Below, piece by piece: positions 25,641-64,000 of a DNA stretch of 64,000 nucleotides. The position numbers and the translations under genes are program-made. Numbering within the stretch: the first letter of the stretch is position 1; each line of letters begins with the position of its first letter. A model generated the notes under the pieces. It searched no databases and was not told where the DNA came from. It was given only the letters and a program-made list of their open reading frames with translations. The stretch is from Gemmatimonadota bacterium. Its GTDB lineage: Bacteria; Gemmatimonadota; Gemmatimonadetes; Palauibacterales; KS3-K002. The stretch is taken from assembly GCA_039586495.1 (NCBI GenBank), contig JBDHKG010000020.1, positions 1,181 to 65,180 on the forward strand, given 5' to 3'.

Positions 25641-25676
25641 GGGCGCCGGGGTCGCCGGCGCCCTCTGTGCTTCTGG
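25641..25676 (+). terminator. Candidate intrinsic terminator after BNR copy 1.
   Basis: 9-bp perfect stem gggcgccgg/ccggcgccc with loop ggtcg, followed by tctgtgcttctgg. Confidence 0.4.
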
Positions 25677-25752
25677 CCGCCCCGGCCGCTGACCCCTAAG
25701 TTGGAACCTGCCCAACCACCGAAACCCTGATCCAAAACTCGGGAGGCTGACC

Positions 25753-28700
25753 ATGCTTCGCCGCCTGATCTCTTCAGGTGCGGCCGCTCTGCTGATCGTT
25801 GCCCTGGCCGCGCCCCTTCACGCTCAGGTCGATCCCGAGCTGCTCGCCGGTATGCAGGCCCGCTCGATTGGGCCCGCCGGCATGAGTGGCCGGATCGCCG
25901 ACGTCGAGGCGGTCGTCTCGAACCCGGACATCGTTTACGTGGGCGCTGCCACCGGCGGCGTGTGGAAGTCGCTGAACGGTGGGCTGACCTTCGAGCCGAT
26001 CTTCGACGATCAGCCGGTCCACGCGATCGGCGACATCGCGATCTTCCAGGCCAGCCCCGACATCGTCTGGGTCGGTACGGGCGAAGGGAACCCCAGGAAC
26101 AGCGTGTCGGTGGGCAACGGCGTCTACAGGTCCCTCGACGGTGGCCGCAGCTGGACCCACCTGGGGCTAGACGAAACGGAGCGCATCCACCGCATCGCGC
26201 TCCACCCGTCTAACCCGGATGTCGCCTACGTGGGGGCGATCGGTAAGGAGTGGGGTGAGAGCCCGGAGCGCGGCCTGTTCAAGACGGAGGACGGCGGCGC
26301 AACCTGGCGGAAGATCCTCTACGTCAACGAGACCACCGGCGTCGGCGACATGGAGATGGACCCGACGAACCCCAACAAGCTGATCGTCGCCATGTGGGAC
26401 TATCGCCGCTGGCCCTGGTTCTTCCGCTCCGGCGGCCCGGGCTCGGGCCTGTACCTGACGGTGGACGGCGGCCGCAACTGGAAGAAGCTGACGCCGGAGG
26501 ACGGGCTGCCCGAGGGTGACCTCGGCCGCATCGGGCTGGCGATCGCGCCGTCGAACCCGAACATCGTCTACGCGCTGATCGAGGCGAAGGAGAACGCGCT
26601 CTACAAGTCGGAGGACGGCGGTTACACCTGGAGGAGGACGGGCGCGCGAGACAACATCGGGAGCCGGCCGTTCTACTACTTCGACCTGCGAGTCGATCCT
26701 CAGGATCCCAACCGGGTCTACAGCCTCTGGTCGCTGGTCAGCGTCTCGAACGACGGCGGCGCGAGCTTCGAGCTCTTGATGACGTGGGATGCGGCGCATC
26801 CCGATCACCATGCCATGTGGATCAGTCCGAACGATCCGACGCTGATCTACGAGGGCAATGACGGCGGCGTCTATGTCAGCCGCGATCGCGGAGAGACGTG
26901 GCGCTTCGTGAGCAACCTGCCGTTCGCCCAGTTCTACCACATCAACGTAACCATGGAGACCCCCTACAACGTGCTTGGCGGTCTGCAGGACAACGGGTCC
27001 TGGCGCGGCCCGAGCGTTGTCTGGGAGAACGGCGGGATCCGCAACCATCACTGGGAGGAGGTAGGCTTCGGCGACGGATTCGCGACGCTGGCCGATCCCA
27101 GTGACCCGATGATCGGCTACGCGATGAGTCAGGAAGGCTTCCTGACGCGTTGGGACCTGCGCACCGGCGAGCGCAAGGACATCCGGCCGGCGCATCCCGA
27201 GGGGATCGAGCTGCGCTTCAACTGGAACGCGGCCATCGCCATCGACCCCTTCGAGCCCAGCACCGTCTACTACGGCAGCAACTGGAACGCGGCCATCGCC
27301 ATCGACCCCTTCGAGCCCAGCACCGTCTACTACGGCAGCCAGTTCGTGCACAAATCCACCGACCGGGGCGACACGTGGGAGATCATCAGCCCGGACCTCA
27401 CCACCAATAATCCCGAGTGGCAGAAGCAGGCGGAGAGCGGCGGCCTGACCCTGGATGTGACGGGCGCCGAGAACTTCACCACGATCATCACGATTGCACC
27501 CAGCCCGGTGGAGCAAGCTGTGATCTGGGTGGGTACGGATGACGGCCGAGTGCAGGTGACCCGCGACGGCGGCGCGACCTGGGAGAGCGTGGAGCGGAAC
27601 ATCCGTGGCGTGCCGGCGAACACGTGGGTGCCGCATATCGAGCCGTCGAAGTTCGATGCGGCGACGGCGTTCGTGGTGTTCGACAACCATCGACGTTCGG
27701 ACTGGACGCCCTATGTCTATGTGACCCACGACTACGGGCGCAGGTGGCGGAGCCTGGCGACGGATGATCTCTGGGGCTACGCGCTGGTGATCGAGCAGGA
27801 TCCGGTGAAGGCGGACCTGCTGTTCCTGGGCACGGAGTTCGGGCTGTACGTGAGCGTGGACGGCGGGAGGGAGTGGCTGAAATGGACGCATGGCGTTCCG
27901 ACCGCCTCGGCGATGGCGCTGATCGTGCACCCGCGGGAGCACGATCTGGTGATCGGGACGCACGGGCGCGCGGCGTACATCCTCGATGACATCCGGCCGT
28001 TACGGTCGCTCACGGCGGAGACACTGGCCCAGCCGATCCACCTGTTCGACATCGCCGACGCGCAGCAGTACATGGTGAAGCAGACCGGCGCCTCGCGCTT
28101 CCCCGGCCACGCTGAGTTCCGCGGCGCGAACCGGCCGTACGGGGCGCTGATCACGTACTCGCTCCACATCGAGGGGTTGCCGCACCCCGACGAGGAGGTC
28201 GAGAGGCAGCGGAAGGCGGCCCAGCGCGAGGCCGGGGCGCCCGAGGAGGAAGCCGCCGGGGAGACCGCGGCGGCCGAGCGCGAGGGCCCGCCCGACCGCG
28301 GTCCCCAGGTCACCATCGAGATCAGCGACGCCGAGGGCGAGGTGATTCGCAGCTTCAAGGGCCCGGCGAAACTGGGGGTCAACCGTGTCGCCTGGGACCT
28401 GCGCCGCGACAGCTTCAGGCGGCCGCGCGGCGACGAGGAGATGTCCTTCTTCGAGCGCGGCGGCCCGGAGGTGCTACCCGGCATCTTCGGTGTACGCATC
28501 AAGTACGGCGAGCACGAGGCGACGGGCCCGGTCACCGTGCTGCCCGATCCGCGTTACGACATCCTGGGCGCCGATCGGGAGGCGAAGTTCGCCGGGATCA
28601 TGCACGCCGGCGCGCTCCGGGAGGTGGCGGCCGAGGCGATCGACCGCATCCAGGACACCCGCGCCGACATCGATGTCGTACTCGACAAGGCCAAGCAGGG

Positions 28701-29085
28701 TGAGGAGGGCGCGGAGAAATCGGCGGCGCGCTCCGAGGAAGAAAGCGCGAACAACGAGTTGATTGAGGCGGCCCGCGAGTTGAAGAAGACGCTCAAGGGG
28801 GTGGAGGAGCGGCTCTGGGTTCCGCCCGGCACCAAAGGCATTGTCGCCGAGACCGCGGTCTACTCGCGCATCGGGTACGTCTTGCGCGCCCTGAGCTCCT
28901 CGTGGGATGCGCCGACGCCGGCGCAGCAGACCTACACGCGTCAGGCGGAGGTGCGGCTCGAAGAGGTCCTTGCCGAGTTCAACCGTGTGTTCGCCGAGGA
29001 CGTGGCCGAGTTCCGGAACAAGGTCGAGGCGGCAGGGATCGAGTTCCTCGGGCCACAGGAGCCTCTGCAGATGCCGGAGCGCTAG
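25753..29085 (+). CDS. Secreted BNR/Asp-box repeat protein, copy 2 (tandem paralog of 22402..25614).
   Basis: 1110 aa, collinear with copy 1 over most of its length. It has an extra Glu/Ala-rich insert at about 28190..28290 and a 20-aa internal duplication. Confidence 0.85.
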   Translation: MLRRLISSGAAALLIVALAAPLHAQVDPELLAGMQARSIGPAGMSGRIADVEAVVSNPDIVYVGAATGGVWKSLNGGLTFEPIFDDQPVHAIGDIAIFQASPDIVWVGTGEGNPRNSVSVGNGVYRSLDGGRSWTHLGLDETERIHRIALHPSNPDVAYVGAIGKEWGESPERGLFKTEDGGATWRKILYVNETTGVGDMEMDPTNPNKLIVAMWDYRRWPWFFRSGGPGSGLYLTVDGGRNWKKLTPEDGLPEGDLGRIGLAIAPSNPNIVYALIEAKENALYKSEDGGYTWRRTGARDNIGSRPFYYFDLRVDPQDPNRVYSLWSLVSVSNDGGASFELLMTWDAAHPDHHAMWISPNDPTLIYEGNDGGVYVSRDRGETWRFVSNLPFAQFYHINVTMETPYNVLGGLQDNGSWRGPSVVWENGGIRNHHWEEVGFGDGFATLADPSDPMIGYAMSQEGFLTRWDLRTGERKDIRPAHPEGIELRFNWNAAIAIDPFEPSTVYYGSNWNAAIAIDPFEPSTVYYGSQFVHKSTDRGDTWEIISPDLTTNNPEWQKQAESGGLTLDVTGAENFTTIITIAPSPVEQAVIWVGTDDGRVQVTRDGGATWESVERNIRGVPANTWVPHIEPSKFDAATAFVVFDNHRRSDWTPYVYVTHDYGRRWRSLATDDLWGYALVIEQDPVKADLLFLGTEFGLYVSVDGGREWLKWTHGVPTASAMALIVHPREHDLVIGTHGRAAYILDDIRPLRSLTAETLAQPIHLFDIADAQQYMVKQTGASRFPGHAEFRGANRPYGALITYSLHIEGLPHPDEEVERQRKAAQREAGAPEEEAAGETAAAEREGPPDRGPQVTIEISDAEGEVIRSFKGPAKLGVNRVAWDLRRDSFRRPRGDEEMSFFERGGPEVLPGIFGVRIKYGEHEATGPVTVLPDPRYDILGADREAKFAGIMHAGALREVAAEAIDRIQDTRADIDVVLDKAKQGEEGAEKSAARSEEESANNELIEAARELKKTLKGVEERLWVPPGTKGIVAETAVYSRIGYVLRALSSSWDAPTPAQQTYTRQAEVRLEEVLAEFNRVFAEDVAEFRNKVEAAGIEFLGPQEPLQMPER
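27219..27339 (+). repeat. Perfect 60-bp tandem duplication (2 units) inside BNR copy 2. It is in-frame and duplicates NWNAAIAIDPFEPSTVYYGS.
   Basis: Unit 27220..27279 is identical to 27280..27339. Copy 1 has this motif once (FNWNAAIAVDPFDPNIVYYGSQFVHKS). Confidence 0.9.
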
Positions 29086-45591: not shown

Positions 45592-45978
45592 ATGGAAGCT
45601 CCACGCGTGCTCATAGTCTCGCCGGACCAGTGGCCCCGGGCGCTGCTGCGGGCGGAGCTGCTGGAGGCCGGATACGATGCGATCGGGGCGCGCACGCTGT
45701 CCGCGTCGCTACGCTACCCCGCCACGCAGCCGGGCCGAGGGCCCGTGAGACTGATTATCGTGGATCAGTGTGTCGTGGAGCGTGAGGCGTCGGAGGTTCG
45801 TGCGCGGCTCGCAGCGAAGCACACCGGGAGTCGGTGGTTTCTTCTTGCACACTCGAGCGGTGTGCTTCCGGCGGGAGACTGGTATGCTGTGCTGCGGCGG
45901 CCGCTGAGCATCGGCCAGGTCGTGGAAGCCGTTAAGCGCGTTCTCCCGATCCCCTACGGTTCCAGCGAATCGGATTGA
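45592..45978 (+). CDS. Possible atypical or pseudo receiver (CheY-like) domain protein.
   Basis: Beta-alpha pattern 'RVLIVSPDQ...', 'VRLIIVDQC', '...FLLAHSSG'. The acidic pocket is incomplete (SPD instead of DD; no conserved Lys). Confidence 0.35.
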   Translation: MEAPRVLIVSPDQWPRALLRAELLEAGYDAIGARTLSASLRYPATQPGRGPVRLIIVDQCVVEREASEVRARLAAKHTGSRWFLLAHSSGVLPAGDWYAVLRRPLSIGQVVEAVKRVLPIPYGSSESD

Positions 45979-47525
45979 GCCGGCGCCGCCCTCGTATCCA
46001 GCGCCTCGGTCGCGGCTGGGGCGTCGGATGTCACCTCAGGGACCTCGCACTCCTGGTTCGCCAAGTAGTCGTACGCTTCCGTCACAGTCTCCCACGCTCT
46101 TGCCCGACCATAGTTCCAGGTTCGCCAAGAGGTCCCTGCCGGCGGCGCCCAACGTTTCAGGATCCGAGCGGCGACCATACAGCGATCGTGGGGGCTCAAT
46201 CCGGGAAGCGCCGACACTACAATCGGGACGGCGTCGGCGCTCAGCGACGTGGCGTACAGCGCGTCGAACTCCTGACCCGTCAGCGCTCGATCGGTGTTCG
46301 TCTTCGCGATCAGTGCGTCCGGGTTCATGATGTTGAGCATCCCAATCAAACAGAATCCCGCGAGCGTGGCACCGGTCACGAAGGGCTGTCTCCAGCCACG
46401 GAGGACGGTGATCGCGAACCAGATCAACACGACGCCGAGCCAGGTCATGAAAGCAGTCGTGTAGAGGCGAAGCTCGGTGAGCCCGTACGCGCCTACGTAC
46501 AGCTGCATGCGCGTTACGGCGGACGTCATGATGACGAAGAGCAGCAGGAGCTGTAGCGCCGCCAGGATTCGAAAGGCGCGCAGGCTCCGGCGATCGGCCT
46601 TCGCCAGCACCCAATCCGCCACGAGCAGCAACGGCAACACGAGCGCGGCGACGGCCACGAGCTCGAAGAACCCGCGGCGCGCGTACTCGGCGTACGTGAG
46701 ACCGACCGTCTGCTCGACCAGCGAAGCGTCACCGAACAGATAGCGGATCTGCACCACCACGAAGACGAGGAAGAGAAAATCGATCAGAGCCAAAGGCACC
46801 GCGATCTCGACGATACCGAGGCCGGGTCGCTCCGGCGCTGCGGCCTCCGTGAAACCGGGCTTGCTGAACCTGAGGATCAGCAGCAGGAAGCCGCACACGG
46901 TCCAGGCGAAGAAGGCTATGAGTGCCGCGTGCGATAGAAGGTTGGCGAGGTCGATGTTCAGGGCGCGCGTCACCAACTGATCGAACACGGCATCGGCTGC
47001 CATCAACAGGCCGCCGAACACGAAGAGCAGCGGAAAAGCGATGAGCAGACCGAGAGCGGCGGAGCGGGCGTGCCGCCAACGCGTGCGGCTCGCCGAACTG
47101 GTCCACGTGATGTCGCTGCGCGCCAACGCCGCGGCACCTACCGCTGCCGCGGTGCCGGAGTTCAGGAGTCCGCGTACGTAGTCCAAGAACCCCCAGCTGC
47201 TAACGGACGTGCCCTCGAGACTGCGGCTCCAGATTGAGATCGCCAGCATCATCGCGAAGGCATCGAAAAACTTCACGGCAGGAGAATCGCGCCAGGCGAA
47301 GCCCGCTGAGAAGATGAGCGCCAGGAATGCGGGCCAGAGCATACCCGGGTTCCATTCGATGCGGTGGCGTGTCGAAAGGATCAGCACGCACACCAACACC
47401 GCCGCCGTCCATACCGGCACGTTGATTCCCCAGGGCAACCCCCGGAGCAGCGCATCGCCCAACACGCCGAGCAGGATCCCGGCGGCCGCTACCTGGAGTG
47501 CGAGCTTAGACTTCGTATCCATCAT
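45954..47525 (-). CDS. Polytopic integral membrane protein (hypothetical; DUF4153/DUF4173-like).
   Basis: 523 aa with at least 12 predicted TM helices. No catalytic motifs recognised. Confidence 0.55.
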   Translation of the reverse strand: MMDTKSKLALQVAAAGILLGVLGDALLRGLPWGINVPVWTAAVLVCVLILSTRHRIEWNPGMLWPAFLALIFSAGFAWRDSPAVKFFDAFAMMLAISIWSRSLEGTSVSSWGFLDYVRGLLNSGTAAAVGAAALARSDITWTSSASRTRWRHARSAALGLLIAFPLLFVFGGLLMAADAVFDQLVTRALNIDLANLLSHAALIAFFAWTVCGFLLLILRFSKPGFTEAAAPERPGLGIVEIAVPLALIDFLFLVFVVVQIRYLFGDASLVEQTVGLTYAEYARRGFFELVAVAALVLPLLLVADWVLAKADRRSLRAFRILAALQLLLLFVIMTSAVTRMQLYVGAYGLTELRLYTTAFMTWLGVVLIWFAITVLRGWRQPFVTGATLAGFCLIGMLNIMNPDALIAKTNTDRALTGQEFDALYATSLSADAVPIVVSALPGLSPHDRCMVAARILKRWAPPAGTSWRTWNYGRARAWETVTEAYDYLANQECEVPEVTSDAPAATEALDTRAAPAQSDSLEP

Positions 47526-47534: not shown

Positions 47535-47903
47535 CTATTCACCGCGCATCACGCGGATGAGATCCTCCATGTCATCCAGATAGCACTCGAGGGCTCGGCG
47601 GCCCGTCTCGGTCAGTCGGTACTCCGTCTTGGGCACCCTTCCTTCGAACGACTTCGTGCAGGCGACGTAACCCGCCTCCTCGAGTTTCCGTGCGTGCACG
47701 CTGAGGTTGCCGTCCGTGATTTCGAGGAGACCTTTCAGATCGCTGAAGGTCAGCGACTCGTTCACGGCGAGTGCGCTCATGATGCCGAGTCGGACCCGCT
47801 GATGGATGAGGCGATCGAGCTCCGGCGTGGCGCTGCTTGAGGCTCGCCCGGGCGGACGACCCGCTGGACTTCCCACGTCTGACGAACCCCGTCGCCTGTT
47901 CAT
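47535..47903 (-). CDS. Winged-helix (HTH_34-type) transcriptional regulator.
   Basis: 'LDRLIHQRVRLGIMSALAVNESLTFSDLKGLLEITDGNLSVHARKLEEAGYVACTKSFEGRVPKTEYRLTETGRRALECYL'. The start is uncertain: the ORF extends to 47975 and would then overlap the upstream gene. Candidate starts are M25 (47903) and M16 (47930). Confidence 0.65.
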   Translation of the reverse strand: MNRRRGSSDVGSPAGRPPGRASSSATPELDRLIHQRVRLGIMSALAVNESLTFSDLKGLLEITDGNLSVHARKLEEAGYVACTKSFEGRVPKTEYRLTETGRRALECYLDDMEDLIRVMRGE

Positions 47904-47919
47904 CGTCGAGGAGCCGCCG

Positions 47920-48531
47920 CTAGCCACCATACCTGCGGGCGATGATGGCGCCGAAGACGACATTGATCCCGCCAAAACCAGCCGCCATGAACGCGTTGCC
48001 CCATGCCGCTGGGGCGAGAAAAGCCCCGAGGCCCACCAGCATGAAGCAGACCCCCATGATCGGGACGGCTCTCACGGAGAACGCGCCGCCCGTCGTGACG
48101 CCCGTGCCATATAACAACAGCCAGGTGCCCGGCATGGCGTCGAAGAGGCGCGCCGAATAGAGGACCGCCGTGAGCACAGCGCCAGCGACCAGGGGAGGGC
48201 AGAGGCCGAAGACGAAGCGTGCGCCGGCGCCGCGCAGCAGCGGCGCCTTGACGGCTCTGGCTTTGAGAGCCATTGCGACGGCCCCGATGGCGATCGCCAG
48301 GGCAGCCTCGGCGAGCCAGGTGAGGAGCCAGGCGCTGGGGGTCATCTGGCGCGCGGCCAGTGCGGCGGCGGCGAACGCGGTCAGGCCGATGGCCAGGGTG
48401 CCCCACCCGGGGACGGCGGTGAAGGAGCTGGCGCGCGCCATGGTGTCGCGAATGAAGCGGAGGTCATCGAGGGCGCGGGACCGGGTGGGGGAGTGGCCGT
48501 TGCACTGGGGTTGAGAGCGTTCGTTGTTCAT
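47920..48531 (-). CDS. Integral membrane protein (hypothetical), probable partner of the wHTH regulator.
   Basis: 203 aa with five or six TM helices. No recognisable motifs. Confidence 0.5.
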
Positions 48532-48597
48532 GAGGGCTCAAAATAGGGGGTGGGGTTGGTGTTGTCAAGTACTTTGCATTGTAAAGGAGATAGGGGG

Positions 48598-48626
48598 TTG
48601 CGCACTCACGGTCTTCGGTTTATATT
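48598..48626 (+). promoter_or_regulatory. Candidate sigma70-type promoter (TTGCGC-17-TATATT) upstream of dnaE2.
   Basis: -35 TTGCGC at 48598..48603, a 17-nt spacer, then -10 TATATT at 48621..48626, in an AT-richer island. A palindrome AAGTACTT (48567..48574) and the CTTT-N7-AAAG dyad lie just upstream. Confidence 0.35.
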
Positions 48627-48638
48627 CGGTATCCCAGG

Positions 48639-48713
48639 GCGGAGGGGTGACCCACTCCCCCTACCTGCGAAGTGCCCCTCCGCTCTGGACCCACCTTGCG
48701 GTGGGCTTTTTTG
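48639..48713 (+). terminator. Leader or small-RNA-like structure: a 9-bp hairpin plus a canonical intrinsic terminator 39 nt upstream of the dnaE2 ATG.
   Basis: Hairpin 1 is gcggagggg (48639..48647) paired with cccctccgc (48675..48683). The terminator has stem cccacc (48690..48695), loop ttgc and stem ggtggg (48700..48705), then cttttttg (48706..48713). Confidence 0.55.
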
Positions 48714-48751
48714 TCGCCAGGGCTTACGGGCTTTATTCGGGACACTGGTTT

Positions 48752-51700
48752 ATGCCCTCATACGCCGAGCTCCACTGTCACTCCGCCTTCTCCCTCCTCG
48801 ACGGCGCCTCCACGCCGGAAGTCCTGGTTCGACGGGCGGTGGAGCTCGGCATCCGCGCCCTGGCGCTCACCGACCACGACGACCTGGGCGGCGCGGTGCG
48901 CTTCAGCCGGGCGGCCCGGGAGGCGGGATTGGAGGCGATCGTGGGGGCTGAGCTCACGATCGTGCCGCCGGAGGACGCTGCCGGTCCTCCCAACCATCTC
49001 ACGCTGCTGGCGCGGACCGCCGAGGGCTACGCGAACCTCTCGGAGCTGGTGACGCGGGGACGGTCGGGCACGGCGGGAACCCTCGCTTCATGTCGCGCGA
49101 CACGGGTTGGGATGTGTGACGGGCCACCGCGCTCCAAATGTCCGCTCGCGGCTCCCGCCGTGCCCTCCCTGTCGCGGAAAGGAGCCCGCCCCGAATCAAC
49201 TTCGAGAGTCCCCATCACGAACAGCTGGGCGCCGGACAGGGGGCGCCCACGGGTGACCTGGGAGGACCTGGCGGAGCTGGGATCCGGGCTCTTCGCCCTC
49301 ACGGGCTGTCCGCAAGGCGAGCTGGCCCGGCGGGTGCGGGCGGGCGATGGGAAGGGGACGCGGGAGCTGCTCGATTTCCTGCGGAGCGCCTTCCACGGCT
49401 ACTTGGCCGTGGAAGTCTGGGATCATGCGTTGCCGGAGGAACGGGCGCTGGCGGATCGCTTGCTGGAGCTGGCGGACCGCCAGGGGCTGCCGGCGGTGGC
49501 GACCAACGATGTGCACTATGCGCTGCCGTCGGGCCGAATCGTCCACGATCTGCTCACCTGCCTGCGCCATCAGGTGACGCTGGATGAGGCGGGCAGGCGG
49601 CTGCGCCCCAACGGCGAGTGGCATCTGAAGCCGTCCTCGGTGGTGTGGCGGCGCTGGCGCCAGCGGCCCGACGTGGTGGAGAACACCCACGGCGTCGCCG
49701 CCGAGTGTTCTTTCCGCTTGGCGGACCTCTCGCCGGCGATGCCGGGGTTCCAGGTGCCGCCCGGCGTGACGACGCAGGAGTATCTGGAGCGGTTGGTCTG
49801 GCGGGGTGCGCTGGAGCGCTACGGTGGGGCAGGGCAGGTGCGGAACGGCGATCCGATCTGCATTTCCGCTCCTGTGGAGGAGGGAGGAGTCGGGGAGATC
49901 GTCTCGCTCCACCGCTCGCAGCCTCCTGCGCCGCCCCCGGATCTCCAGCGCGGCCGCACGGTTGAGCGCGAGCCGCCGACCACCCCACCGGCCCTTGCAA
50001 AGGAAGTACTGCGGCCTGGCCGAGGCACGTCCAGGCACTTGAGCGAGGCGGGTCAAATCTGGAACAGTGACTCGAGTGGCGTGGTCGTTCCGACTAGGGA
50101 TGGGGCGCCGGATGGGTCGTCGAGCGTAACTCGCGAGCGGTGGAGCGAGATGATCCCACCGGCGCCCCGTCTAAACGGCGGCTCGGGTCTCAGGCAGCGA
50201 GTGCGTCGCCAGATCCGCCACGAACTCGAGGTGATCAAGCGCTTGGACCTGGCCGGGTACTTCCTCACCGTCTGGGACATCGTCCGCTTCGCCCGGCGCC
50301 AAGGGATCCTGTTGCAGGGACGCGGCTCGGCCGCCAACTCCTGCGTCTGCTACTGCCTGGGGATCACGGCGGTGGATCCCATCAAGTTCGAGCTGTTGTT
50401 CGAGCGCTTCCTCTCGGAGGAGCGGGGCGGCGCGCCCGACATCGATCTCGACATCGAGCACGAGCAGCGCGAGGAGGTGCTCCAGTACGTCTACCGCAAG
50501 TACGGCCGCGAGCGGGCGGCGATGGTCTGCGAGACGATCACCTATCGCGGCCGCTCCGCGGTGCGCGATGCCGCCCGCGTGCTCGGCTTTTCCACCGATG
50601 TGGCCGATCGACTGGCGGCGGAAGTGGAGCGCTGCGAAGCGGTAGAGGCGGCCGATGTGCTGGAGAACGGCGGACTGGCCGCCTGCGGGCTCGATCCGCG
50701 GGACCGTCGTGTCGCGGCGCTGGTCCACGTGGTGCGCGGGCTCGACCAACTACCGCGTCACCGCTCCATCCATGTAGGCGGCTTCGTCCTCACCGCGAGC
50801 CCACTCTCCCTGGTCGTCCCCATCGAGCCGGCGGCGATGCCGGAGCGCACCGTCATCCAGTGGGACAAGGACGACCTCGACTTCGTGGGCCTCATCAAGA
50901 TCGATCTGTTGGGCCTGGGGATGCTTACCTGCCTGGCGAAGGCGATCCGCTACATCCGCGAGACGCGCGGTGTGGCCATCGACCTGGCCCAGCTGCCGGC
51001 GGGCGACCCCGAGGTCTACCGGATGATCCAGCAGGCGGACACGGTAGGCGTCTTCCAGATCGAGAGCCGGGCGCAGATGAACTCGCTGCCGCGCTTGAAA
51101 CCCGGGGATTTCTACGATCTGGTCGTCCAGGTGGCGCTCATCCGGCCGGGCCCCATCCAGGGCGAGATGGTGCACCCCTATGTGCGGCGGCGGCGCGGCG
51201 AGGAGCCGGTGACGTATCTGCATCCGGATCTTGAGCCGATCCTCAAGCGGACGCTGGGCGTGCCGCTCTTCCAGGAGCAGGGGATGAAGGTCGCGGTGGC
51301 GATGGCGAACTTCACGCCGGGCCAGGCGGACGCATTGCGCCGGGCGATGGGGTTCAAGCGCTCGAGGGAGGCGATGGCGCTGATCGAGCCGGCGCTACGG
51401 GCGGGGATGACGGCGCGCGGGATCACCACAGACGTGCAGGATCAGATCGTCAAGCAGCTCACCGCCTTCGCCAACTACGGTTTTCCGGAGAGCCATGCGG
51501 CGTCATTCGCGCTCCTGGTCTACGCCTCGGCGTATCTCAAGCGCTACTACGCGCCCGAGTTCTACTGCGCGCTGCTCAACGCGCAACCGATGGGGTTCTA
51601 CGCGCCGGGGACGCTCGTTCATGATGCACGTCGCCACGGGGTCGAGATGCGGCCCGTCGATCTCGCGTACTCGAGCTGGGACTGCACGCTCGAACCCGGC

Positions 51701-52699
51701 ATCGAGGAAGACGGGGTGCGGCAGGGTCGTCTCGCTTCATGTCGCGCGGCACCGTGCCGATGTCGAAGGACCGGCGGGGGCGCTCCAAATGTCCGCTCAA
51801 CGACACCTGCCGCACCCCTGGACTCCGGGGACACGGCAGGAGATCCTCGAGCGGCCTTGTCACCACGAAAGGGAGGGCACGGCACCGACCCACGAGCGGA
51901 CATTTGGAGCGCCCCGGCCCGTCTCGTACACGTGCCCGAGTCGCGCGACATGAAGCGAGGGGTCGGTGCCGTGCCCGACCGGCCGGCTCTGCGGATCGGA
52001 CTGCGCTATGTGCGCGGGCTGGGCTCGAAGGCGGAGGAGAAGCTCAAGGCGGCATGGGAGGCCGGGGGACGTTTCCGGTCGGTGGAGGATGTGGTGCGGC
52101 GGTCGGGCCTCGGCCTCCCCTCCCTCAAGACGCTGGCGGAGGCCGGCGCCTTCCGGACGCTCTGGGGGCCGGGCCGGCGCTCCGCCCTCTGGGAGATGCT
52201 GGCGAAGCTCGCCCAGCGGCCACTGGCGCCGGTGGATTCGGCGCCTCATCCGTACCCGCACCCGAAACTGAAGGAGATGACCCGGGTCGAGTTCATCGCC
52301 GCCGATTACCTGACCACCGGACTCTGCACCCACGGGCATCCCATGGAGCACCTGCGGGCAACACTGCGCGCTCACGGTGTGGTCTCGGCCGAGGAGCTCA
52401 AGCGGGTCCGCAGCGGTCAGCGAGTGAAGGTGGCTGGCGTGGTGATCTGCCGGCAGCGGCCGGGCACCGCCAAAGGCGTGTGCTTCATCACTCTGGAGGA
52501 TGAGACCGGGTTCTCCAACTTCGTGGTCTACGCCGACCTGTTTCAGCGCTACCGCCGCACCATCGTCCGCTCACCGGTGCTCTTGATCGAGGGGATCGCC
52601 CAGCACGAGCAGGACGTGATCAACGTGCAGGCACGGCGGATCACCGCGATCGAGCCGACCGCGGGCGCCGACGTCATCGAGAGCCACGACTTTCACTGA
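48752..52699 (+). CDS. dnaE2: Error-prone DNA polymerase III alpha-subunit homolog (DnaE2/ImuC type), lengthened by three in-frame palindromic-element insertions.
   Basis: Starts MPSYAELHCHSAFSLLDGAS, the PHP domain. The polymerase core includes 'GFVLTASPL...IDLLGLGMLT...GVFQIESRAQM', and the OB-fold tail is 'VKVAGVVICRQRPGTAKGVCFITLEDETG'. The ORF-track start at 48524 is probably too long. Confidence 0.85.
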   Translation: MPSYAELHCHSAFSLLDGASTPEVLVRRAVELGIRALALTDHDDLGGAVRFSRAAREAGLEAIVGAELTIVPPEDAAGPPNHLTLLARTAEGYANLSELVTRGRSGTAGTLASCRATRVGMCDGPPRSKCPLAAPAVPSLSRKGARPESTSRVPITNSWAPDRGRPRVTWEDLAELGSGLFALTGCPQGELARRVRAGDGKGTRELLDFLRSAFHGYLAVEVWDHALPEERALADRLLELADRQGLPAVATNDVHYALPSGRIVHDLLTCLRHQVTLDEAGRRLRPNGEWHLKPSSVVWRRWRQRPDVVENTHGVAAECSFRLADLSPAMPGFQVPPGVTTQEYLERLVWRGALERYGGAGQVRNGDPICISAPVEEGGVGEIVSLHRSQPPAPPPDLQRGRTVEREPPTTPPALAKEVLRPGRGTSRHLSEAGQIWNSDSSGVVVPTRDGAPDGSSSVTRERWSEMIPPAPRLNGGSGLRQRVRRQIRHELEVIKRLDLAGYFLTVWDIVRFARRQGILLQGRGSAANSCVCYCLGITAVDPIKFELLFERFLSEERGGAPDIDLDIEHEQREEVLQYVYRKYGRERAAMVCETITYRGRSAVRDAARVLGFSTDVADRLAAEVERCEAVEAADVLENGGLAACGLDPRDRRVAALVHVVRGLDQLPRHRSIHVGGFVLTASPLSLVVPIEPAAMPERTVIQWDKDDLDFVGLIKIDLLGLGMLTCLAKAIRYIRETRGVAIDLAQLPAGDPEVYRMIQQADTVGVFQIESRAQMNSLPRLKPGDFYDLVVQVALIRPGPIQGEMVHPYVRRRRGEEPVTYLHPDLEPILKRTLGVPLFQEQGMKVAVAMANFTPGQADALRRAMGFKRSREAMALIEPALRAGMTARGITTDVQDQIVKQLTAFANYGFPESHAASFALLVYASAYLKRYYAPEFYCALLNAQPMGFYAPGTLVHDARRHGVEMRPVDLAYSSWDCTLEPGIEEDGVRQGRLASCRAAPCRCRRTGGGAPNVRSTTPAAPLDSGDTAGDPRAALSPRKGGHGTDPRADIWSAPARLVHVPESRDMKRGVGAVPDRPALRIGLRYVRGLGSKAEEKLKAAWEAGGRFRSVEDVVRRSGLGLPSLKTLAEAGAFRTLWGPGRRSALWEMLAKLAQRPLAPVDSAPHPYPHPKLKEMTRVEFIAADYLTTGLCTHGHPMEHLRATLRAHGVVSAEELKRVRSGQRVKVAGVVICRQRPGTAKGVCFITLEDETGFSNFVVYADLFQRYRRTIVRSPVLLIEGIAQHEQDVINVQARRITAIEPTAGADVIESHDFH
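49082..49180 (-). repeat. Truncated copy of palindromic MITE-like element family 1, inverted relative to the 51731 copy, inside dnaE2 and in-frame.
   Basis: The 18-bp terminus ctcgcttcatgtcgcgcg (49082..49099) is identical to 51731..51748. The inner box gcgctccaaatgtccgctc (49129..49147) is identical to the inner repeat of the full copy. ccgtgccctccc (49158..49169) is the reverse complement of gggagggcacgg in the full copy. The second half is missing. Confidence 0.7.
49897..50153 (+). mobile_element. Palindromic MITE-like element family 2 (~257 bp) inside dnaE2, in-frame.
   Basis: The terminal inverted repeats atcgtctcgctccaccgctcgc (49897..49918) and gcgagcggtggagcgagatgat (50132..50153) match at 21 of 22 positions. 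The element encodes a low-complexity ~90-aa Pro/Gly/Ser-rich insert ('...SLHRSQPPAPPPDLQRGRTVEREPPTTPPALAKE...') absent from typical DnaE2. Confidence 0.6.
51731..51959 (+). mobile_element. Full-length palindromic MITE-like element family 1 (229 bp, nested inverted repeats) inside dnaE2, in-frame.
   Basis: The outer TIRs are ctcgcttcatgtcgcgcg (51731..51748) and cgcgcgacatgaagcgag (51942..51959), an 18/18 match. The inner inverted repeats are ggggcgctccaaatgtccgctc (51778..51799) and gagcggacatttggagcgcccc (51894..51915), a 22/22 match. The central part has a further cctgccg...cggcagg dyad. The element encodes '...LASCRAAPCRCRRTGGGAPNVRSTTPAAPLDSGDTAGDPRAALSPRKGGHGTDPRADIWSAPARLVHVPESRDMKRG...' between the conserved DnaE2 segments 'SSWDCTLEPG' and 'PALRIGLRYVRGLG'. 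Confidence 0.75.
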
Positions 52700-60118: not shown

Positions 60119-61381
60119 TCAGCTTTCTCCTTTCAACAGTACCCGCAGTTTGAACCAGGAGAGGATGATGGCGGAAAGCGCCAGGAACCAGATGAGAATG
60201 AGGATAAGCCTGTGTTCCCAGCGCTGCTCGGCGCTCACCTCCGCGGCTGCCCGCACATCCCGCGAGATCGAGGCCACCTGCCGACTCAGATCCTCGAGCG
60301 TTTCGAGTCCTAGGCTGTGTTGAGTCTGAGCCATCTGCATGTACGAGGTCAGCGCACTCTGGTAGCGAAACTCTACGTCCGAGACCTGCTGGCCGGCACG
60401 GGTGAGTTCTAGGATCGCCTCTTCGGCACTTCGCAGATCCTCGCTGGCACGTGTCACCTGTTCTTGGATCTCTACCCCGGCAAGAGCGGCGGGTTCTTCG
60501 GTGTCGTGGCAGTTCAGGCAGGTGGCCGCGACCCTTTCAGGATGCACTCGTTCGGTGCCGTGGTTGGAGTGGCAGGCGGTGCAGCCGGGCAGGACCCCGG
60601 CGCGGGCCGCGGCACCATGCGGTCCCGCGTCGAACGCGCGGCGAACCAGGACGTGGCATTGACCGCACACGTTCCCGATTTGGCTGACTGCCGGTGGTAG
60701 CGCCGCATGGGAACCGTGGCAGCCTACGCAGGTCGGTGCCGCGAAATTCTCTTTCTCGTAGAGCGCTACACCGTGGGTGCTTGCCCGGTGCGTCGTGACC
60801 TGGTCCGTGGTCAGGCCATACTTCGCCATCAACGCCGCCTGCTCGTGGCAGCGTGCGCAGGTGGCTGCGATGTTGGTGGGGTAGACGTTGCTGCGTGCGT
60901 CGTTGGGCGGCAGGATCATGTGCGCGTCGTGGCAGTCGGTGCAGGTAGGCGCATCGAAGTCCCGTTGCTCCAGCAATAGCCTGCCGTGCCGACTGGTGCG
61001 GTACTCGGCGAGCTGGCCCGCCGGCAAGCCGTACTGGCGCATCCGATCGGGGTCGGAGTGGCACGACGCGCACAGCTGCACCGTACGAATCTTGTCGGGC
61101 GACCCGATGTAGTTTGCGCCGGTGTGGGCGGTGGCGCGCTCGAACGCCCTCGGGTCCCCACCGTGGCAGTCGTGACAGCGGATGCCACGCTCGGAGTGCG
61201 CGCCGAGCAGGAACGCTCTCCGCTTGTCGGTGTGGCAGACAACACAGCTGTACTCAGGGTCGATGTCGAATTCGCGCTGCTGAGAAGGCACCGGCGAAGC
61301 CGTCGCTGTCTCAGCGTCGACGGACGCCGCCGCCAGAGCCAGCAGGGTGCTGGAAGTCAGTATCCACGGGCCCGCTCTCAC
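60119..61381 (-). CDS. Nonaheme c-type cytochrome, paralog of 55202..56464, with a C-terminal TM anchor.
   Basis: Nine CxxCH motifs. Segments collinear with the plus-strand paralog include 'CASCHSDPDRMRQYGL' ~ 'CGRCHSDAQFMRQYNP' and 'IGNVCGQCH' ~ 'VGNVCGQCH'. Confidence 0.85.
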   Translation of the reverse strand: MRAGPWILTSSTLLALAAASVDAETATASPVPSQQREFDIDPEYSCVVCHTDKRRAFLLGAHSERGIRCHDCHGGDPRAFERATAHTGANYIGSPDKIRTVQLCASCHSDPDRMRQYGLPAGQLAEYRTSRHGRLLLEQRDFDAPTCTDCHDAHMILPPNDARSNVYPTNIAATCARCHEQAALMAKYGLTTDQVTTHRASTHGVALYEKENFAAPTCVGCHGSHAALPPAVSQIGNVCGQCHVLVRRAFDAGPHGAAARAGVLPGCTACHSNHGTERVHPERVAATCLNCHDTEEPAALAGVEIQEQVTRASEDLRSAEEAILELTRAGQQVSDVEFRYQSALTSYMQMAQTQHSLGLETLEDLSRQVASISRDVRAAAEVSAEQRWEHRLILILIWFLALSAIILSWFKLRVLLKGES

Positions 61382-62640
61382 TGCTGGTCCTCCCTGTCGC
61401 CAGGGTTCTGGGAGCGTGAGTCACGCTCCGGTGTCTCTGCTTCGAGTTCTCGCGGAACGAACCGCTCGACCACGCCTTCAGATCGTAGGTGCGTGCCGGG
61501 CGGCAGCGACTCGAGCTGACGACCGGCCACCCAAGCGACGAGGAAGCCGGCGAAGAACACCAACCCGAGCGCCAGCGCGAGGGGCCTCTTACGCAGCCGC
61601 CGCTCAGGTCGGCGATCGAACAGGGGAAGCAACGCCAGGCTGATCCCCAACAATGTGAAGAGCGAGAAGCCCCACACACCGAGGTAGCGTATCAGAGCCA
61701 ACGCGACGTCCACGACGATCCATGAGGAAACGAGTTCCTCCGGGAGCTGGAACGGGTCGGCGGGGTCCCCCACCGCTCGCGGGTAGAGGGCTGCCAGGCT
61801 GAACGTTACGGCCAGGACCAGGATCCCGACGATGAACGAGCGCAAGAGATGATTCGGGAAAAACCGCGTCCCTTCGCCGGCGCTCGCTGTCGCTTCGGGA
61901 GGCGGGGCGATCCCGTGCCTTCGCACCAAATTGAAGTGGAACAGGAGCAGCGCGAAGGCTACCCAGGGAAGCAGGATCACGTGGAGGGCGAAGAAGCGGC
62001 TTAGGGTCGCGCCCGACACGATCACGTCGCCCTGCAGAACCGAAGCTGCGAGACTGAGCAGCGGCGCGCGCGACATGGTGCCCAGCACCTCCGTGACCGT
62101 CCAGTAAGCCCACTGATCCCAGGCCAGCAAGTAGCCGGTGGTACCGAAAGCCAGTACAACCAGCAGCAGGAGCACGCCTACCACCCAGTTCGTCTCGCGC
62201 GGCGGCTTGTAGGTCGCGTGAAAGAAGACGCGGGCCATATGGGCCAGTATCGCGAGCACGATGAGGTTTGCCGACCAGACGTGGAGGTTGCGGACCAGCC
62301 AGCCCATCGGAACCTCGGTAACGATGTACTGGATACTCGGGTAGGCTTCTTGCACCGAAGGCCGGTAGTAGAAGGACAGCAGCACACCGGTAACCACCAG
62401 GACGATGAAAAGCAGGTACGTGATGCCGCCGAGCGCATGGCGCCAGCCGACGTGACCCGCTAAGCGGTAGCCGAGCGCTTTGCGCAGTGCCTGATCGATT
62501 GGCAGGCTTCGGTCGATGCGGCCGTACAGCAGCCCCAGGAACCGCGCTACCCCGAGCAGCCCGGGATCGGTACTGGCCTTGAGGTCGGCCCAGAACTGGG
62601 CCAACCATCTGGCTCTTGGCTTCCGTTCTGAATCGTTCAC
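61378..62640 (-). CDS. Cytochrome b subunit, paralog of 56961..58058.
   Basis: '...SIQYIVTEVPMGWLVRNLHVWSANLIVLAILAHMARVFF...' is collinear with the plus-strand cytochrome b. 4-nt overlaps with both neighbouring genes. Confidence 0.85.
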   Translation of the reverse strand: MNDSERKPRARWLAQFWADLKASTDPGLLGVARFLGLLYGRIDRSLPIDQALRKALGYRLAGHVGWRHALGGITYLLFIVLVVTGVLLSFYYRPSVQEAYPSIQYIVTEVPMGWLVRNLHVWSANLIVLAILAHMARVFFHATYKPPRETNWVVGVLLLLVVLAFGTTGYLLAWDQWAYWTVTEVLGTMSRAPLLSLAASVLQGDVIVSGATLSRFFALHVILLPWVAFALLLFHFNLVRRHGIAPPPEATASAGEGTRFFPNHLLRSFIVGILVLAVTFSLAALYPRAVGDPADPFQLPEELVSSWIVVDVALALIRYLGVWGFSLFTLLGISLALLPLFDRRPERRLRKRPLALALGLVFFAGFLVAWVAGRQLESLPPGTHLRSEGVVERFVPRELEAETPERDSRSQNPGDREDQQ

Positions 62641-63098
62641 CTTTCTCCTTCCGAAACGTAGACGACACCGTCCCTGACAGACACGGAGTAGCGTCGAAGC
62701 GCCTGCATGGACAGGCCTGCAACTACATCTCCTCGCAGGTCATAGACCGTGTACCGGCACGGCGAATAGACTCGCGAGGACTCGGGGTCCCAGCGCAGGA
62801 TGCAGCCGTCGAACGGCGAGACCCCCTGCAGCGCGAAGTAGCGGAGAGAATCGGGCCGGATGACAAGAATGGTCTTCTCACCCCAGTTCCGCACCCGGCT
62901 GGACCCGACAGGGAAATCGGCCTCCCGGGCCACGCGAATCACCGGCTGAAGCTCAGGGATCTCGAGATGCTCGGAGGGGGCGACATAGAACGTGGTCGCT
63001 ATCGCCAGCAGCACGATCATCACGAGGATGACGCCGCCCAGGAGAAGTTCGGTGAAGCCGAATCGCGAAGTCCTCAGCTGTTTCTCCATTGCTTGCAT
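62637..63098 (-). CDS. Rieske-fold paralog lacking all four Fe-S ligands (pseudo-Rieske) but keeping the disulfide Cys pair. It has a degenerate Tat motif.
   Basis: Aligns with 56503..56958: 'SRFGFTELLLG' ~ '[11 protein letters not shown]' (RR to RF). Box I 'CTHLAC' becomes 'SPFDGC' and box II 'CACH' becomes 'SPCR'. Confidence 0.55.
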   Translation of the reverse strand: MQAMEKQLRTSRFGFTELLLGGVILVMIVLLAIATTFYVAPSEHLEIPELQPVIRVAREADFPVGSSRVRNWGEKTILVIRPDSLRYFALQGVSPFDGCILRWDPESSRVYSPCRYTVYDLRGDVVAGLSMQALRRYSVSVRDGVVYVSEGER

Positions 63099-63263
63099 AC
63101 GGTTGACGCGAAGCCGCGCAAACGGGTTCTCCGCAGGATCACCCGCAGCATCGGGAAGCGAGCTGAAACTACCACGCTTCCCCGAAATTGCGCCACCGGT
63201 TGAGGCGGCAAGCCGGTGAGCGTCAAGTCGCTTATCGTTCTGCCGACTTGCCCGGAGTCAGAC

Positions 63264-64000
63264 TTCCAGCCCGAGCCGCGTTTTCATCTGCTCAACCAGC
63301 CATTCCGCCTCAGATTTGTCTCGTATCGAGCTTCCCGCGTGCAGCCGCACCCCGTCGCGACGCACGAGCCGGATGTCATAGTACACCGTGTTGCCGGAGT
63401 GCATCCCGATCTTCAGCACGATGTCTTCGATGTCGTGAACTGGGATCTTGCGGGTGGGACCGAGGCCCAGGAGCCCACGGCAGATCTCGATGCCCCCCGA
63501 CGTGAGGGTGACGCGGGTGGTGCCGAGCCAGACTCTGATCAGCGCGTAGGCTAGCAGCAGGTCGAACGCGCCGAAGACGACAGGGAAGACGATCGGCGCG
63601 CCGAGTCGCGGGAGCGCGCGCGGGCGCGAAGAAGATCTCGGTGCGCCGCAGGCCGGAGGTGACGTAGATGCGGGAGTCGGGTGGTTGACGGTATTCGGCA
63701 GTGTATTCGGCTAGCGGCTCTTCCTCCTCGGGCGGCAAGGGGATCTCACTTGCCGGCGTCCGGAACACCGGGACCTCGAAGCCCGCGTGGTAGTCGACGC
63801 CCGGCACGGAGGCGCGAGCCTCGAGGCGCCAGAGGATCTCGCTACTGGGGTCACTCGCGTCGGTTTCCCTCGCGTTGAGGGGCAGCCGGAACGAGACGGG
63901 GATCGCTGTCGCGGTTCGCCCGACGTGCCCCGTCTCGGTGACCTGGCGTTCCTCCTGCCAGAGAATTCGCTCTCTCGTCGAGCTCTCCCCGCCGGAGCGG
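63264..64000 (-). CDS. Hypothetical membrane-anchored protein, partial: the N-terminus is beyond the window end. A frameshift is possible near 63600.
   Basis: The minus-strand frame from the window end reads '...ILWRLEARASVPGVDYHAGFEVPVFRTPASEIPLPPEEEEPLAEYTAEYRQPPDSRIYVTSGLRRTEIFFAPARA'. A +1 frame continues with 'LPRLGAPIVFPVVFGAFDLLLAYALIRVWLG...HDIEDIVLKIGMHSGNTVYYDIRLVRRDGVRLHAGSSIRDKSEAEWLVEQMKTRLGLEV*', ending near 63264. The switch sits at a cgcgcccgcgcgcgctccc run. Confidence 0.3.

What the first reader, a model, noticed from the sequence alone, without database searches (positions are those of the whole stretch)
49897..50153. A third, different palindromic element (~257 bp) is in-frame in dnaE2
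Inverted repeats atcgtctcgctccaccgctcgc and gcgagcggtggagcgagatgat (21/22) bracket a segment encoding a Pro/Ser/Gly-rich ~90-aa stretch. This stretch sits where DnaE2 proteins normally run directly from the '...ERYG' region to 'ELEVI'.

Together the three inserts lengthen DnaE2 by about 250 aa. The terminus of this family (tctcgct..cgctcgc) loosely resembles that of family 1 (ctcgcttc..cgcgcg), so the two may be related.
Basis: partly seen in the sequence, partly recalled or inferred. Interest (0 to 1): 0.65.

Follow-up and report, generated by a model that had tools for sequence, protein, structure and literature searches.

The report
Hairpin repeat inserted in-frame in DnaE2
A 276-base palindromic repeat sits in-frame in a floppy surface loop of the error-prone DNA polymerase gene of a Gemmatimonadota bacterium; it is one member of an undescribed hairpin-repeat family that, in this clade, piles up in that one gene.

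Summary
Arms 49898-49919 and 50133-50154 match 21/22. They extend to 34 nt at 85% and share a perfect 18-nt core.

The host ORF is DnaE2/ImuC of a Gemmatimonadota bacterium. The closest ortholog (94% aa identity, dS 0.10) lacks exactly 276 nt (92 codons) here, and so do three other close relatives. The segment is therefore lineage-specific, not a conserved linker.

It is stop-free and Pro/Ser/Gly-rich, with lower GC3 than the rest of the gene. AlphaFold predicts it as disordered between two confident helices at the PHP-palm junction.

It is not really a different family. Its arms are "C-type" variants of the same roughly 100-nt hairpin unit that forms the other two inserts. Intermediate core sequences exist. 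The right end (50099-50171) is a complete unit with an internal deletion.

Homologous units lie in intergenic DNA of other Gemmatimonadota MAGs. In seven dnaE2 loci, units occur only inside dnaE2, at three indel-rich loops.

Several things remain unproven. No other copy of the full element was found, no target-site duplication and no transposase. The polarity (insertion versus loss in relatives) is unresolved.

Best reading: an RPE/REP-like non-autonomous repeat, tolerated as a translated loop.

The parts
48752..52699 (+). dnaE2/imuC coding sequence, 1315 aa from ATG 48752. The mechanical ORF from TTG 48524 is over-extended.
   Evidence: Pfam finds PHP, DNA_pol3_alpha, finger, HHH_6 and OB domains. 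Homologs are named error-prone DNA polymerase and all start at M-x-SYAELHCHS. dN/dS is 0.18-0.29 against close orthologs.
49880..50155 (+). Extra segment relative to the closest ortholog: 276 nt = 92 codons, DnaE2 residues 377-468. Junctions are ambiguous by a few bases.
   Evidence: In blastn against L001 the left flank ends at 49880 and the right flank resumes at 50160, with 3 nt between them in L001. The segment is also absent in L002, L134 and L135. pLDDT is below 50 across residues 360-477. GC3 is 0.75 against 0.854 for the rest of the gene.
49886..49919 (+). Left arm of the inverted repeat. It contains the C-type core TCTCGCTCCACCGCTCGC at 49902-49919.
   Evidence: The nhmmer unit profile hits 49888-49922 (E = 0.016).
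50133..50166 (-). Right arm of the inverted repeat. It contains the C-type core at 50133-50150 on the minus strand.
50099..50171 (-). Complete hairpin unit. The stem arms are 50099-50121 and 50149-50171. The C core is fused directly to the 'D' motif CGAGCGTAACTC (50121-50132). This is a C-type unit that has lost the roughly 40-nt central part between the direct repeats CCGCTCGCG.
   Evidence: Inverted repeat I3/I8. Alignment with units of L043, L047, L050 and L053. nhmmer hit 50161-50107, E = 5.5e-4. Duplex of its own arms -21.4 kcal/mol, rank 1.
49894..49946 (+). Degenerate left unit: a short stem GGAGATCG (49894-49901) / CGGATCTCC (49938-49946) enclosing the C core. It has no B/D motif.
   Evidence: Read from the sequence; fold.
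49947..50098 (+). Central segment with no detectable homolog.
   Evidence: blastn and tblastx against the window and all loci found nothing beyond chance. Its similarity to the centre of the L132 element is not significant, with 102 of 1000 shuffles as good.
49066..49165 (+). Insert 1: a single A/B-type hairpin unit of the same family (site 1).
   Evidence: It is part of a 96-nt in-frame indel against L134/L135.
51713..51976 (+). Insert 3: two A/B-type units head to head, 51713-51818 (+) and 51875-51976 (-), at site 3.

Best explanation
The segment is a composite of two facing copies of a roughly 70-110-nt hairpin repeat unit. The unit family appears specific to Gemmatimonadota.

Each unit has a GC-rich closing stem whose sequence differs from copy to copy. 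Inside the stem are two conserved, non-complementary core motifs: TCGCTYCA...CGCG on the 5' side and ...(A/G)TTACGCTC or AAATGTCCGCTC on the 3' side.

The copy in this window carries the 'C-type' core. The same core is found in intergenic units of other Gemmatimonadota genomes. The C-type sequence therefore came from another copy of the family, by transposition or by recombination/gene conversion. It landed at a loop of dnaE2 that already held remnants of earlier units.

The result is 276 nt long, a multiple of three, and has no stop codon in the host frame. It is therefore read through and translated as a 92-aa disordered, Pro/Ser/Gly-rich loop at the PHP-palm junction, where the DnaE fold tolerates extra residues. 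The polymerase stays under purifying selection.

Shown: the inverted repeat, the presence/absence difference among close relatives, homology to a dispersed unit family, the in-frame open state, the predicted disorder, and purifying selection on the gene.

Inferred: mobility, the donor, the enzyme responsible, the direction of the event, and translation of the insert. The most likely consequence for the cell is near-neutral. A secondary effect on the mRNA, which carries a very stable hairpin, is possible but untested.
For: - The inverted repeat is far beyond chance.
- The closest ortholog L001 (94% aa identity, dS 0.096) lacks exactly 276 nt. L002, L134 and L135 also lack it.
- The 18-19-nt C core plus the D motif recur in about 100-nt intergenic hairpins of other Gemmatimonadota MAGs: L043, L047, L050 and L053, with metagenome duplicates L113, L122 and L126. 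Two copies lie on different contigs of one MAG.
- The unit alignment shows that C-type and A/B-type units are homologous. Intermediate cores exist.
- Both arms of the window element are identical to the C core of those other Gemmatimonadota MAGs. The units at the same site in L130 and L132 are A-type. Point mutation in place cannot explain this, so a C-type donor is needed.
- Stems are unit-specific. A unit's own arms pair at -21.6 kcal/mol against -11.6 kcal/mol for cross pairs, and 11 of 17 units rank first with their own partner.
- The nhmmer unit profile finds units only in Gemmatimonadota loci within 1.0 Mb of fetched DNA.
- Only 2 of 6 frames of the element are open, and a random sequence of this composition is open in a given frame 14% of the time. 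All indels seen at the three sites are multiples of 3: 96, 189 and 276 nt. This fits selection filtering for ORF-preserving events.
- GC3 of the three inserts is 0.65-0.75 against 0.854 for the gene.
- AlphaFold gives pLDDT below 50 and no secondary structure for residues 360-477, between confident helices 341-357 and 482-497.
- The site corresponds to an unaligned stretch (residues 324-354) of Taq Pol III alpha.
- dN/dS is 0.12-0.29.
- Precedent: in-frame Rickettsia palindromic elements (PMC10969869) and REPs inside ORFs encoding 43-82 aa (PMC3733652).
- Uncharacterised 90- and 150-bp repeats are abundant in some Gemmatimonadota genomes (PMC11237797).
Against: - No second copy of the whole 276-nt element, or of its central 150 nt, was found in 185,579 representative genomes, JGI metagenomes, IMG/VR, plasmids or the protein collections. 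The source genome itself is apparently not in those collections, so copy number there is unknown.
- No target-site duplication is visible. The 'empty' alleles differ from each other, so none is a clean pre-insertion site.
- No transposase, RAYT or integrase was found among the 40 candidate window ORFs scanned, which lie up to position 60112.
- In the window and six related dnaE2 loci, units are found only inside dnaE2 and not in the flanking DNA fetched (60 kb in the window, about 80 kb in the related loci). This is unusual for a freely transposing element.
- Units with homologous outer arms occupy the same position in L130 and L132. Loss in the close relatives, rather than gain here, therefore cannot be excluded.
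- The unit-coded peptide of insert 3 has no match in 1.84 billion representative proteins. This is not a widespread protein-coding palindrome like the RPEs.
Confidence: 0.55

Rival explanations
1. Reversed polarity. A palindromic element was already at this loop in the ancestor of the clade. The window kept it, while the close relatives lost it by separate in-frame deletions. The two arms are kept alike, and C-type, by gene conversion or template switching with other copies.
For: - L130 and L132, which are more distant relatives, carry units at the same position. Their outer arms are homologous to those of the window: GAGGAGGG.GGAG.CGGGG..TCGTCTCGCTCCA on the left and TGGAGCGAGA.GA.CCCACC.GCG.CCC on the right.
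- The four 'empty' alleles fall into three mutually different sequence states (L134 and L135 are identical here). They look like different footprints.
- At site 1 the 'empty' alleles L134/L135 keep the element-type 5' arm CGGTCGGGCACGGCGG. They are therefore deletion derivatives.
- L134/L135 at site 2 keep a TCCCTTCGTG remnant.
Against: - It needs at least two or three independent deletions within dS of about 0.1-0.3, against one gain.
- The A-type to C-type change still needs an outside C-type donor.
- The centre of the window element is not significantly similar to the centre of the L132 element.
Confidence: 0.25
2. Local origin without a mobile element. Replication template switching or fold-back synthesis at a pre-existing hairpin duplicated a unit in inverted orientation and added filler DNA.
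For: - The inner stem arms are inverted copies of sequence retained in 'empty' alleles. In L130 against L131, GCGCCACCTCC inside the extra DNA complements the flanking GGAGGTGGCGC. In the window, 50099-50117 complements the flank CCCACCGGCGCCCCGTC, which is partly present in L001.
- The central 150 nt has no homolog.
Against: - The cores are 18/18 identical to cores in other Gemmatimonadota MAGs, while the units at the same site in relatives are A-type. A purely local duplication would have copied an A-type core.
- No source for the filler was found in the window.
Confidence: 0.08
3. A functional feature kept by selection, either a cis-acting RNA or DNA hairpin that controls dnaE2 expression or a useful protein linker, rather than a tolerated passenger.
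For: - The hairpin is very stable, -162 kcal/mol with z = -4.5.
- Units are concentrated in dnaE2 in seven loci.
- Core motifs are conserved across genera.
Against: - It is absent from the closest orthologs, whose gene is equally constrained.
- There is no Rfam family.
- The content of the loops differs in almost every genome.
- GC3 is low and the peptide is predicted disordered.
Confidence: 0.08
4. An intein, an intron, or an assembly artefact.
For: DnaE genes are classic intein hosts. Palindromes can be created by assembly errors.
Against: - Pfam finds no Hint/intein or any other domain in the insert.
- At 92 aa it is too short and of low complexity, and it lacks splice-junction residues.
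- There is no intron family in Rfam.
- Related units occur in many independent assemblies, always preserving the frame.
Confidence: 0.02

Closest known systems
Rickettsia palindromic elements (RPEs; Ogata et al. 2000, 2002, as summarised in PMC10969869)
   Same: They are short palindromic repeats found in-frame inside protein-coding genes. They are read through as extra peptide at positions compatible with the fold. No transposase is encoded.
   Different: There is no sequence relationship. RPEs sit in many unrelated genes and encode a conserved peptide. Here the units cluster in one gene, are used in all frames and orientations, and the peptide has no match elsewhere. The host is a GC-rich, free-living phylum.
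REP / BIME / REPIN elements mobilised by RAYT tyrosine transposases (PMC3733652)
   Same: They are hairpin units with copy-to-copy stem variation. They often occur as head-to-head dimers that form longer hairpins, tend to cluster, and are occasionally found inside ORFs. They produce no target-site duplication.
   Different: REPs are 20-40 nt with a GTAG or CGTC tag and are mostly extragenic. The units here are 70-110 nt with two conserved internal motifs. CGTC precedes the left core (GATCGTCTCGC) but not the right one (GATCATCTCGC). No RAYT was seen in the scanned window ORFs.
Bacterial MITEs (Correia, ERIC, Nezha and others; PMC10969869)
   Same: The size is 50-500 bp, there are terminal inverted repeats, they are non-coding, and they occasionally give in-frame fusions.
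   Different: No target-site duplication and no matching IS element was found. Repetition of the whole element is not shown.
Uncharacterised 90- and 150-bp repeats of Gemmatirosa kalamazoonesis and Gemmatimonadaceae bacterium 138 (PMC11237797)
   Same: Same phylum, a similar unit length, and high density in some genomes.
   Different: They are described only by length and number, and no sequences were available to compare. Identity with this family was not tested.
PARCELs (palindromic amphipathic repeat coding elements; PMC2996958)
   Same: They are palindromic repeats that lie within coding sequence and are translated.
   Different: They encode amphipathic helices in surface proteins of Mollicutes. 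There is no resemblance in sequence, host gene or predicted structure.

Membership tests
MITE | Terminal inverted repeats | tested here: met
   34-nt arms at 85% complementarity with an 18-nt perfect core.
MITE | Target-site duplication flanking the element | tested here: not met
   The junctions against L001 and L002 show no direct repeat. The empty alleles are themselves rearranged, so the test is weak.
MITE | Many dispersed copies of the whole element in one genome | not testable with these tools
   The source genome is not in the collections. Only the terminal unit has relatives, all in other genomes. The central segment has none.
MITE | A parent IS element or transposase with the same termini | tested here: not met
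   No transposase domain was found in the 40 candidate window ORFs scanned (up to position 60112; the dnaE2 ORF itself was scanned; four more candidates at 60119-63807 were not scanned). The rest of the genome is unknown.
REP / REPIN (RAYT-associated) | A 20-40-nt imperfect palindrome with a GTAG or CGTC tag | tested here: not met
   Units are 67-110 nt. CGTC adjoins only some cores.
REP / REPIN (RAYT-associated) | Head-to-head dimers that form a longer hairpin | tested here: met
   Two facing C-type cores at site 2 and two facing A/B units at site 3.
REP / REPIN (RAYT-associated) | A cognate RAYT (Y1 transposase) gene in the genome | not testable with these tools
   None was found in the scanned window ORFs. 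The whole genome is unavailable.
Rickettsia palindromic elements | Sequence membership in an RPE family | tested here: not met
   Homologs of the unit were found only in Gemmatimonadota loci. There is no Rfam match.
Rickettsia palindromic elements | In-frame and stop-free inside a conserved protein, at a structurally permissive site | tested here: met
   92 codons with no stop. A disordered loop between confident helices. Translation itself was not tested.
Intein | Hint domain and splice-junction residues | tested here: not met
   Pfam finds nothing in the insert.
Known structured RNA (Rfam), including group I/II introns | A match to a covariance model | tested here: not met
   No relevant match at E <= 1 in the gene or in the intergenic units.
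DnaE2 / ImuC (host gene) | PHP, Pol III alpha, finger, HhH and OB domains, with orthology to error-prone polymerases | tested here: met

The most novel reading that the evidence does not exclude
The hairpin units are not ordinary transposons. They enter by a fold-back or template-switch process that copies 10-20 nt of the adjoining DNA in inverted orientation, which would explain why every unit has its own perfectly matched stem. They also home to earlier units. As a result they accumulate specifically in three loops of the gene for the error-prone polymerase, where they keep generating in-frame length variation, and perhaps mRNA structure, in the mutasome's catalytic subunit.
Probability: 0.08. 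Interest if true: 0.8.

Novelty: new variant of a known kind. Interest (0 to 1): 0.55.

Why it matters
In-frame palindromic repeats are best known from Rickettsia. Finding a comparable phenomenon in GC-rich, free-living Gemmatimonadota would extend it to a new phylum.

The unit architecture is also different: two conserved core motifs inside copy-specific stems. And the units are strikingly concentrated in three loops of one gene, the SOS mutagenesis polymerase.

The many natural alleles differ by clean in-frame indels of 96, 189 and 276 nt. They offer a ready-made series for three questions:
- how such repeats enter and leave genes;
- how much loop insertion a C-family polymerase tolerates;
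- whether stable hairpins inside a coding region affect expression.

There is also a practical point for annotation. DnaE2 lengths in this clade (about 1120-1320 aa) reflect repeat content, not new domains.

Tried and rejected
- Exact 18-mer scan of 185,579 genomes. It gave 90 loci, almost all single chance hits in unrelated phyla. None carried two facing cores.
- 22-mer across the C/D junction in JGI metagenomes: no hit. The 19-mer core found only duplicates of two known units plus chance hits.
- IMG/VR scans for both cores: no hits.
- Plasmid blastn with the element, insert 3 and an intergenic unit: no match.
- Six-frame peptide of the element against 5.8 billion proteins: nothing at E <= 10.
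- Peptide of insert 3 against 1.84 billion representative proteins: nothing at E <= 0.001.
- Rfam on the gene and on the intergenic units: only chance miRNA-like hits.
- RNAalifold on the MAFFT unit alignment did not recover the closing stem, because the arms are out of register. I replaced it with an own-arm versus cross-arm duplex test.
- An apparent collinear similarity between the centres of the window and L132 elements did not survive a shuffle test. I therefore do not claim vertical descent of the centre.
- I first read the L130/L131 and site-1 comparisons as 'insertion with inverted duplication of the flank'. The retained 5' arms carry element-type sequence (CGGTCGGGCRCGRC), so deletion derivatives explain at least site 1. 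The idea is kept only as the low-probability novel case.
- Intein, intron, conserved linker and pseudogene readings were tested and rejected.
Full report
**1. The observation**

The region 49700-50400 was read directly. The repeat finder reports arms 49886-49919 and 50133-50166, 34 nt at 85% complementarity and 213 nt apart.

The perfect 18-nt core TCTCGCTCCACCGCTCGC occurs nowhere else in the window. At up to 3 mismatches there are 3 hits against 0.36 expected.

Only four inverted repeats of at least 20 nt within 600 nt exist in the 64 kb, and three of them are in this gene. The 293-nt stretch folds at -161.9 kcal/mol as RNA (z = -4.5) and at z = -3.5 as DNA.

**2. The host gene**

The ORF 48524-52699 has a likely true start at ATG 48752, giving 1315 aa. 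It carries PHP, Pol III alpha, finger, HhH and OB domains. Its best homologs are error-prone DNA polymerases of Gemmatimonadota MAGs, at up to 94% identity.

dN/dS against close orthologs is 0.18-0.29, and dS to the closest is 0.096. The gene is therefore functional. The 40 candidate window ORFs scanned, up to position 60112, encode ordinary chromosomal genes and no transposase.

**3. Presence and absence**

In the protein alignment the segment is absent from P0001, P0002, P0003 and P0004.

At the DNA level the P0001 locus (L001) aligns up to window position 49880 and again from 50160, with 3 nt in between. The window therefore has 276 extra bases, or 92 codons. L002, L134 and L135 also lack the segment, and the residual sequence takes three different forms across the four empty alleles.

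Distant DnaE2 proteins run directly from ERYG to the R..QIRHEL helix. The whole stretch 'GAGQVRNGDPI...NGGSGL' of this clade is thus already an older addition. No direct repeat flanks the segment.

**4. What the segment is made of**

A scan of 185,579 genomes with the 18-mer gave mostly chance hits. Four Gemmatimonadota loci (L043, L047, L050, L053) share much more than the seed. They share an intergenic hairpin of about 100 nt with this layout:
- a GC-rich 5' stem;
- the C core;
- a roughly 40-nt variable hairpin;
- the motif GAGTTACGCTCG;
- a 3' stem.

The window's right end, 50099-50171, is the same unit with core and GAGTTACGCTCG fused. That is the product expected of a deletion between the direct repeats CCGCTCGCG. 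The left end has the core and a short stem only.

The other two inserts of the gene (49066-49165 and 51713-51976) are made of units with the same plan. Their motifs are A (CTCGCTTCATGTCGCGCG) and B (GCGCTCCAAATGTCCGCTC).

Three results tie the types together:
- A MAFFT alignment of 18 units shows invariant columns across both types.
- Intermediate cores exist in L130 and L131.
- L053 has an A core next to a C unit.

So 'family 3' is a variant of 'family 1'.

The closing stems differ between units but match their own partner. A unit's own arms pair at -21.6 kcal/mol against -11.6 kcal/mol for cross pairs, and 11 of 17 units rank first. Rfam has no such family.

**5. Distribution**

An nhmmer profile of the unit finds five hits in the window, all inside dnaE2. 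In six further dnaE2 loci it finds hits inside the gene only, and none in the flanking DNA fetched (about 80 kb). In 1.0 Mb of fetched loci from many phyla, only Gemmatimonadota loci hold units.

Relatives carry units at the same three loops, in different orientations and frames. This explains peptide motifs such as SRSMSR, SLHVA, GAPNVRS, ERTFGAP, SRDMKRG and ARHEARG.

L130 differs from L131 by a clean 189-nt indel at the same loop. L134 and L135 differ from the window by 96 nt at site 1. All indels are multiples of three.

The central part of the window element has no homolog. The peptide searches were empty.

**6. Consequences for the protein**

The 92-aa peptide is 36% Pro+Ser+Gly.

AlphaFold, run on 800 residues with 46 aligned sequences, gives pLDDT below 50 and no secondary structure for residues 108-161 and 360-477. 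The flanking helices 341-357 and 482-497 are confident.

Against solved structures, the site falls in the unaligned stretch 324-354 of Taq Pol III alpha, at the start of the palm. Pfam finds no domain and no intein in the insert.

GC3 is 0.75 in the insert and 0.65-0.69 in the other two inserts, against 0.854 in the rest of the gene. This is as expected for DNA that did not evolve as coding sequence.

Only 2 of the element's 6 frames are open. A random sequence of the same composition is open in a given frame 14% of the time.

**7. Interpretation**

The best reading is an RPE/REP-like non-autonomous hairpin repeat that arrived from another copy of the family and is tolerated as a translated, disordered loop.

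The strongest argument for an outside donor is this. Both arms carry the exact C core seen in other Gemmatimonadota MAGs, while the units at the same site in L130 and L132 are A-type.

What stays open:
- The direction of the event. Units with homologous outer arms at the same site in L130 and L132, and clear deletion derivatives at site 1, keep 'loss in the relatives' alive.
- The enzyme responsible.
- The copy number in the source genome.
- The reason for the concentration in dnaE2. Preferential insertion into, or recombination with, earlier units would explain the layering at three 'landing pads'. This is inference.

**8. Literature**

- In-frame RPEs are reviewed in PMC10969869.
- REPs inside ORFs, and the GTAG and CGTC superfamilies, are described in PMC3733652. 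That paper does not mention Gemmatimonadota.
- PMC11237797 reports abundant, uncharacterised 90- and 150-bp repeats in some Gemmatimonadota genomes.
- A search for DnaE2/ImuC insertions found nothing comparable.

**9. Verdict**

It is part of a previously undescribed Gemmatimonadota hairpin-repeat family rather than a separate third family. It resembles known in-frame palindromic repeats in effect. It differs from them in unit architecture and in its gene-specific clustering.

Noticed in passing
window 49066-49165 and 51713-51976; L001, L002, L130-L135: All units of this repeat family in the window and in six related loci lie inside dnaE2, at three loops. None is in the flanking DNA fetched (60 kb in the window, about 80 kb in the related loci). 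Relatives carry different numbers, orientations and frames of units, so DnaE2 length ranges from about 1120 to 1320 aa.
   Followed up: partly
L130 11054-11150 versus L131; window 50099-50171 versus L001: The inner stem arm of a unit is an inverted copy of sequence that is retained in the allele lacking the unit. In L130, for example, GCGCCACCTCC complements the flanking GGAGGTGGCGC. This could mean inverted duplication of the flank at entry, or deletions that leave one arm behind.
   Followed up: partly
window 47920-48531 (-), 47535-47975 (-), 45954-47525 (-): A 203-aa ORF with no Pfam match is transcribed divergently from dnaE2. It is followed by an HTH_34/ArsR-type regulator and a DUF4153 protein. 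The trio is syntenic upstream of dnaE2 in all related loci that include upstream sequence (L001, L002, L130, L132, L133) except L131. No imuA or imuB is adjacent to dnaE2.
   Followed up: no
window 48524-48751: The mechanical ORF starts at TTG 48524, 76 codons upstream of the conserved start MPSYAELHCHS at ATG 48752. GC content drops to 0.57-0.62 there, so it is probably the promoter and leader region.
   Followed up: no
window 11168-22351: Five tandem paralogous genes share a conserved N-terminal segment (repeat families D1, D8, D9). Four of them (starting at 14434, 16435, 18248 and 19985) have TPR repeats downstream; the TPR ORF at 12095-13834 lies downstream of the first repeat copy (11168-11412).
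   Followed up: no
window 22402-29085: Two adjacent paralogs of about 1070-1110 aa with Sortilin/Vps10 and BNR repeats are about 80% identical at the DNA level. The second contains a perfect 60-nt tandem duplication at 27219-27338.
   Followed up: no
L131 12608-12646 (dnaE2 site 3): A lone core TCTCGCTCCACGTCGCGCG, exactly intermediate between the A and C motifs, sits in an otherwise short loop. It is probably the remnant of a deleted unit.
   Followed up: partly
L047 5276-5411: An AT-rich, nearly perfect palindrome of about 130 nt lies in intergenic DNA of a Gemmatimonadota MAG. It was picked up as spurious miRNA-precursor matches on both strands and is unrelated to the unit family.
   Followed up: no
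L043 1-58 and 103-200: In this MAG the C-type unit lies about 45 nt downstream of a tRNA gene.
   Followed up: no
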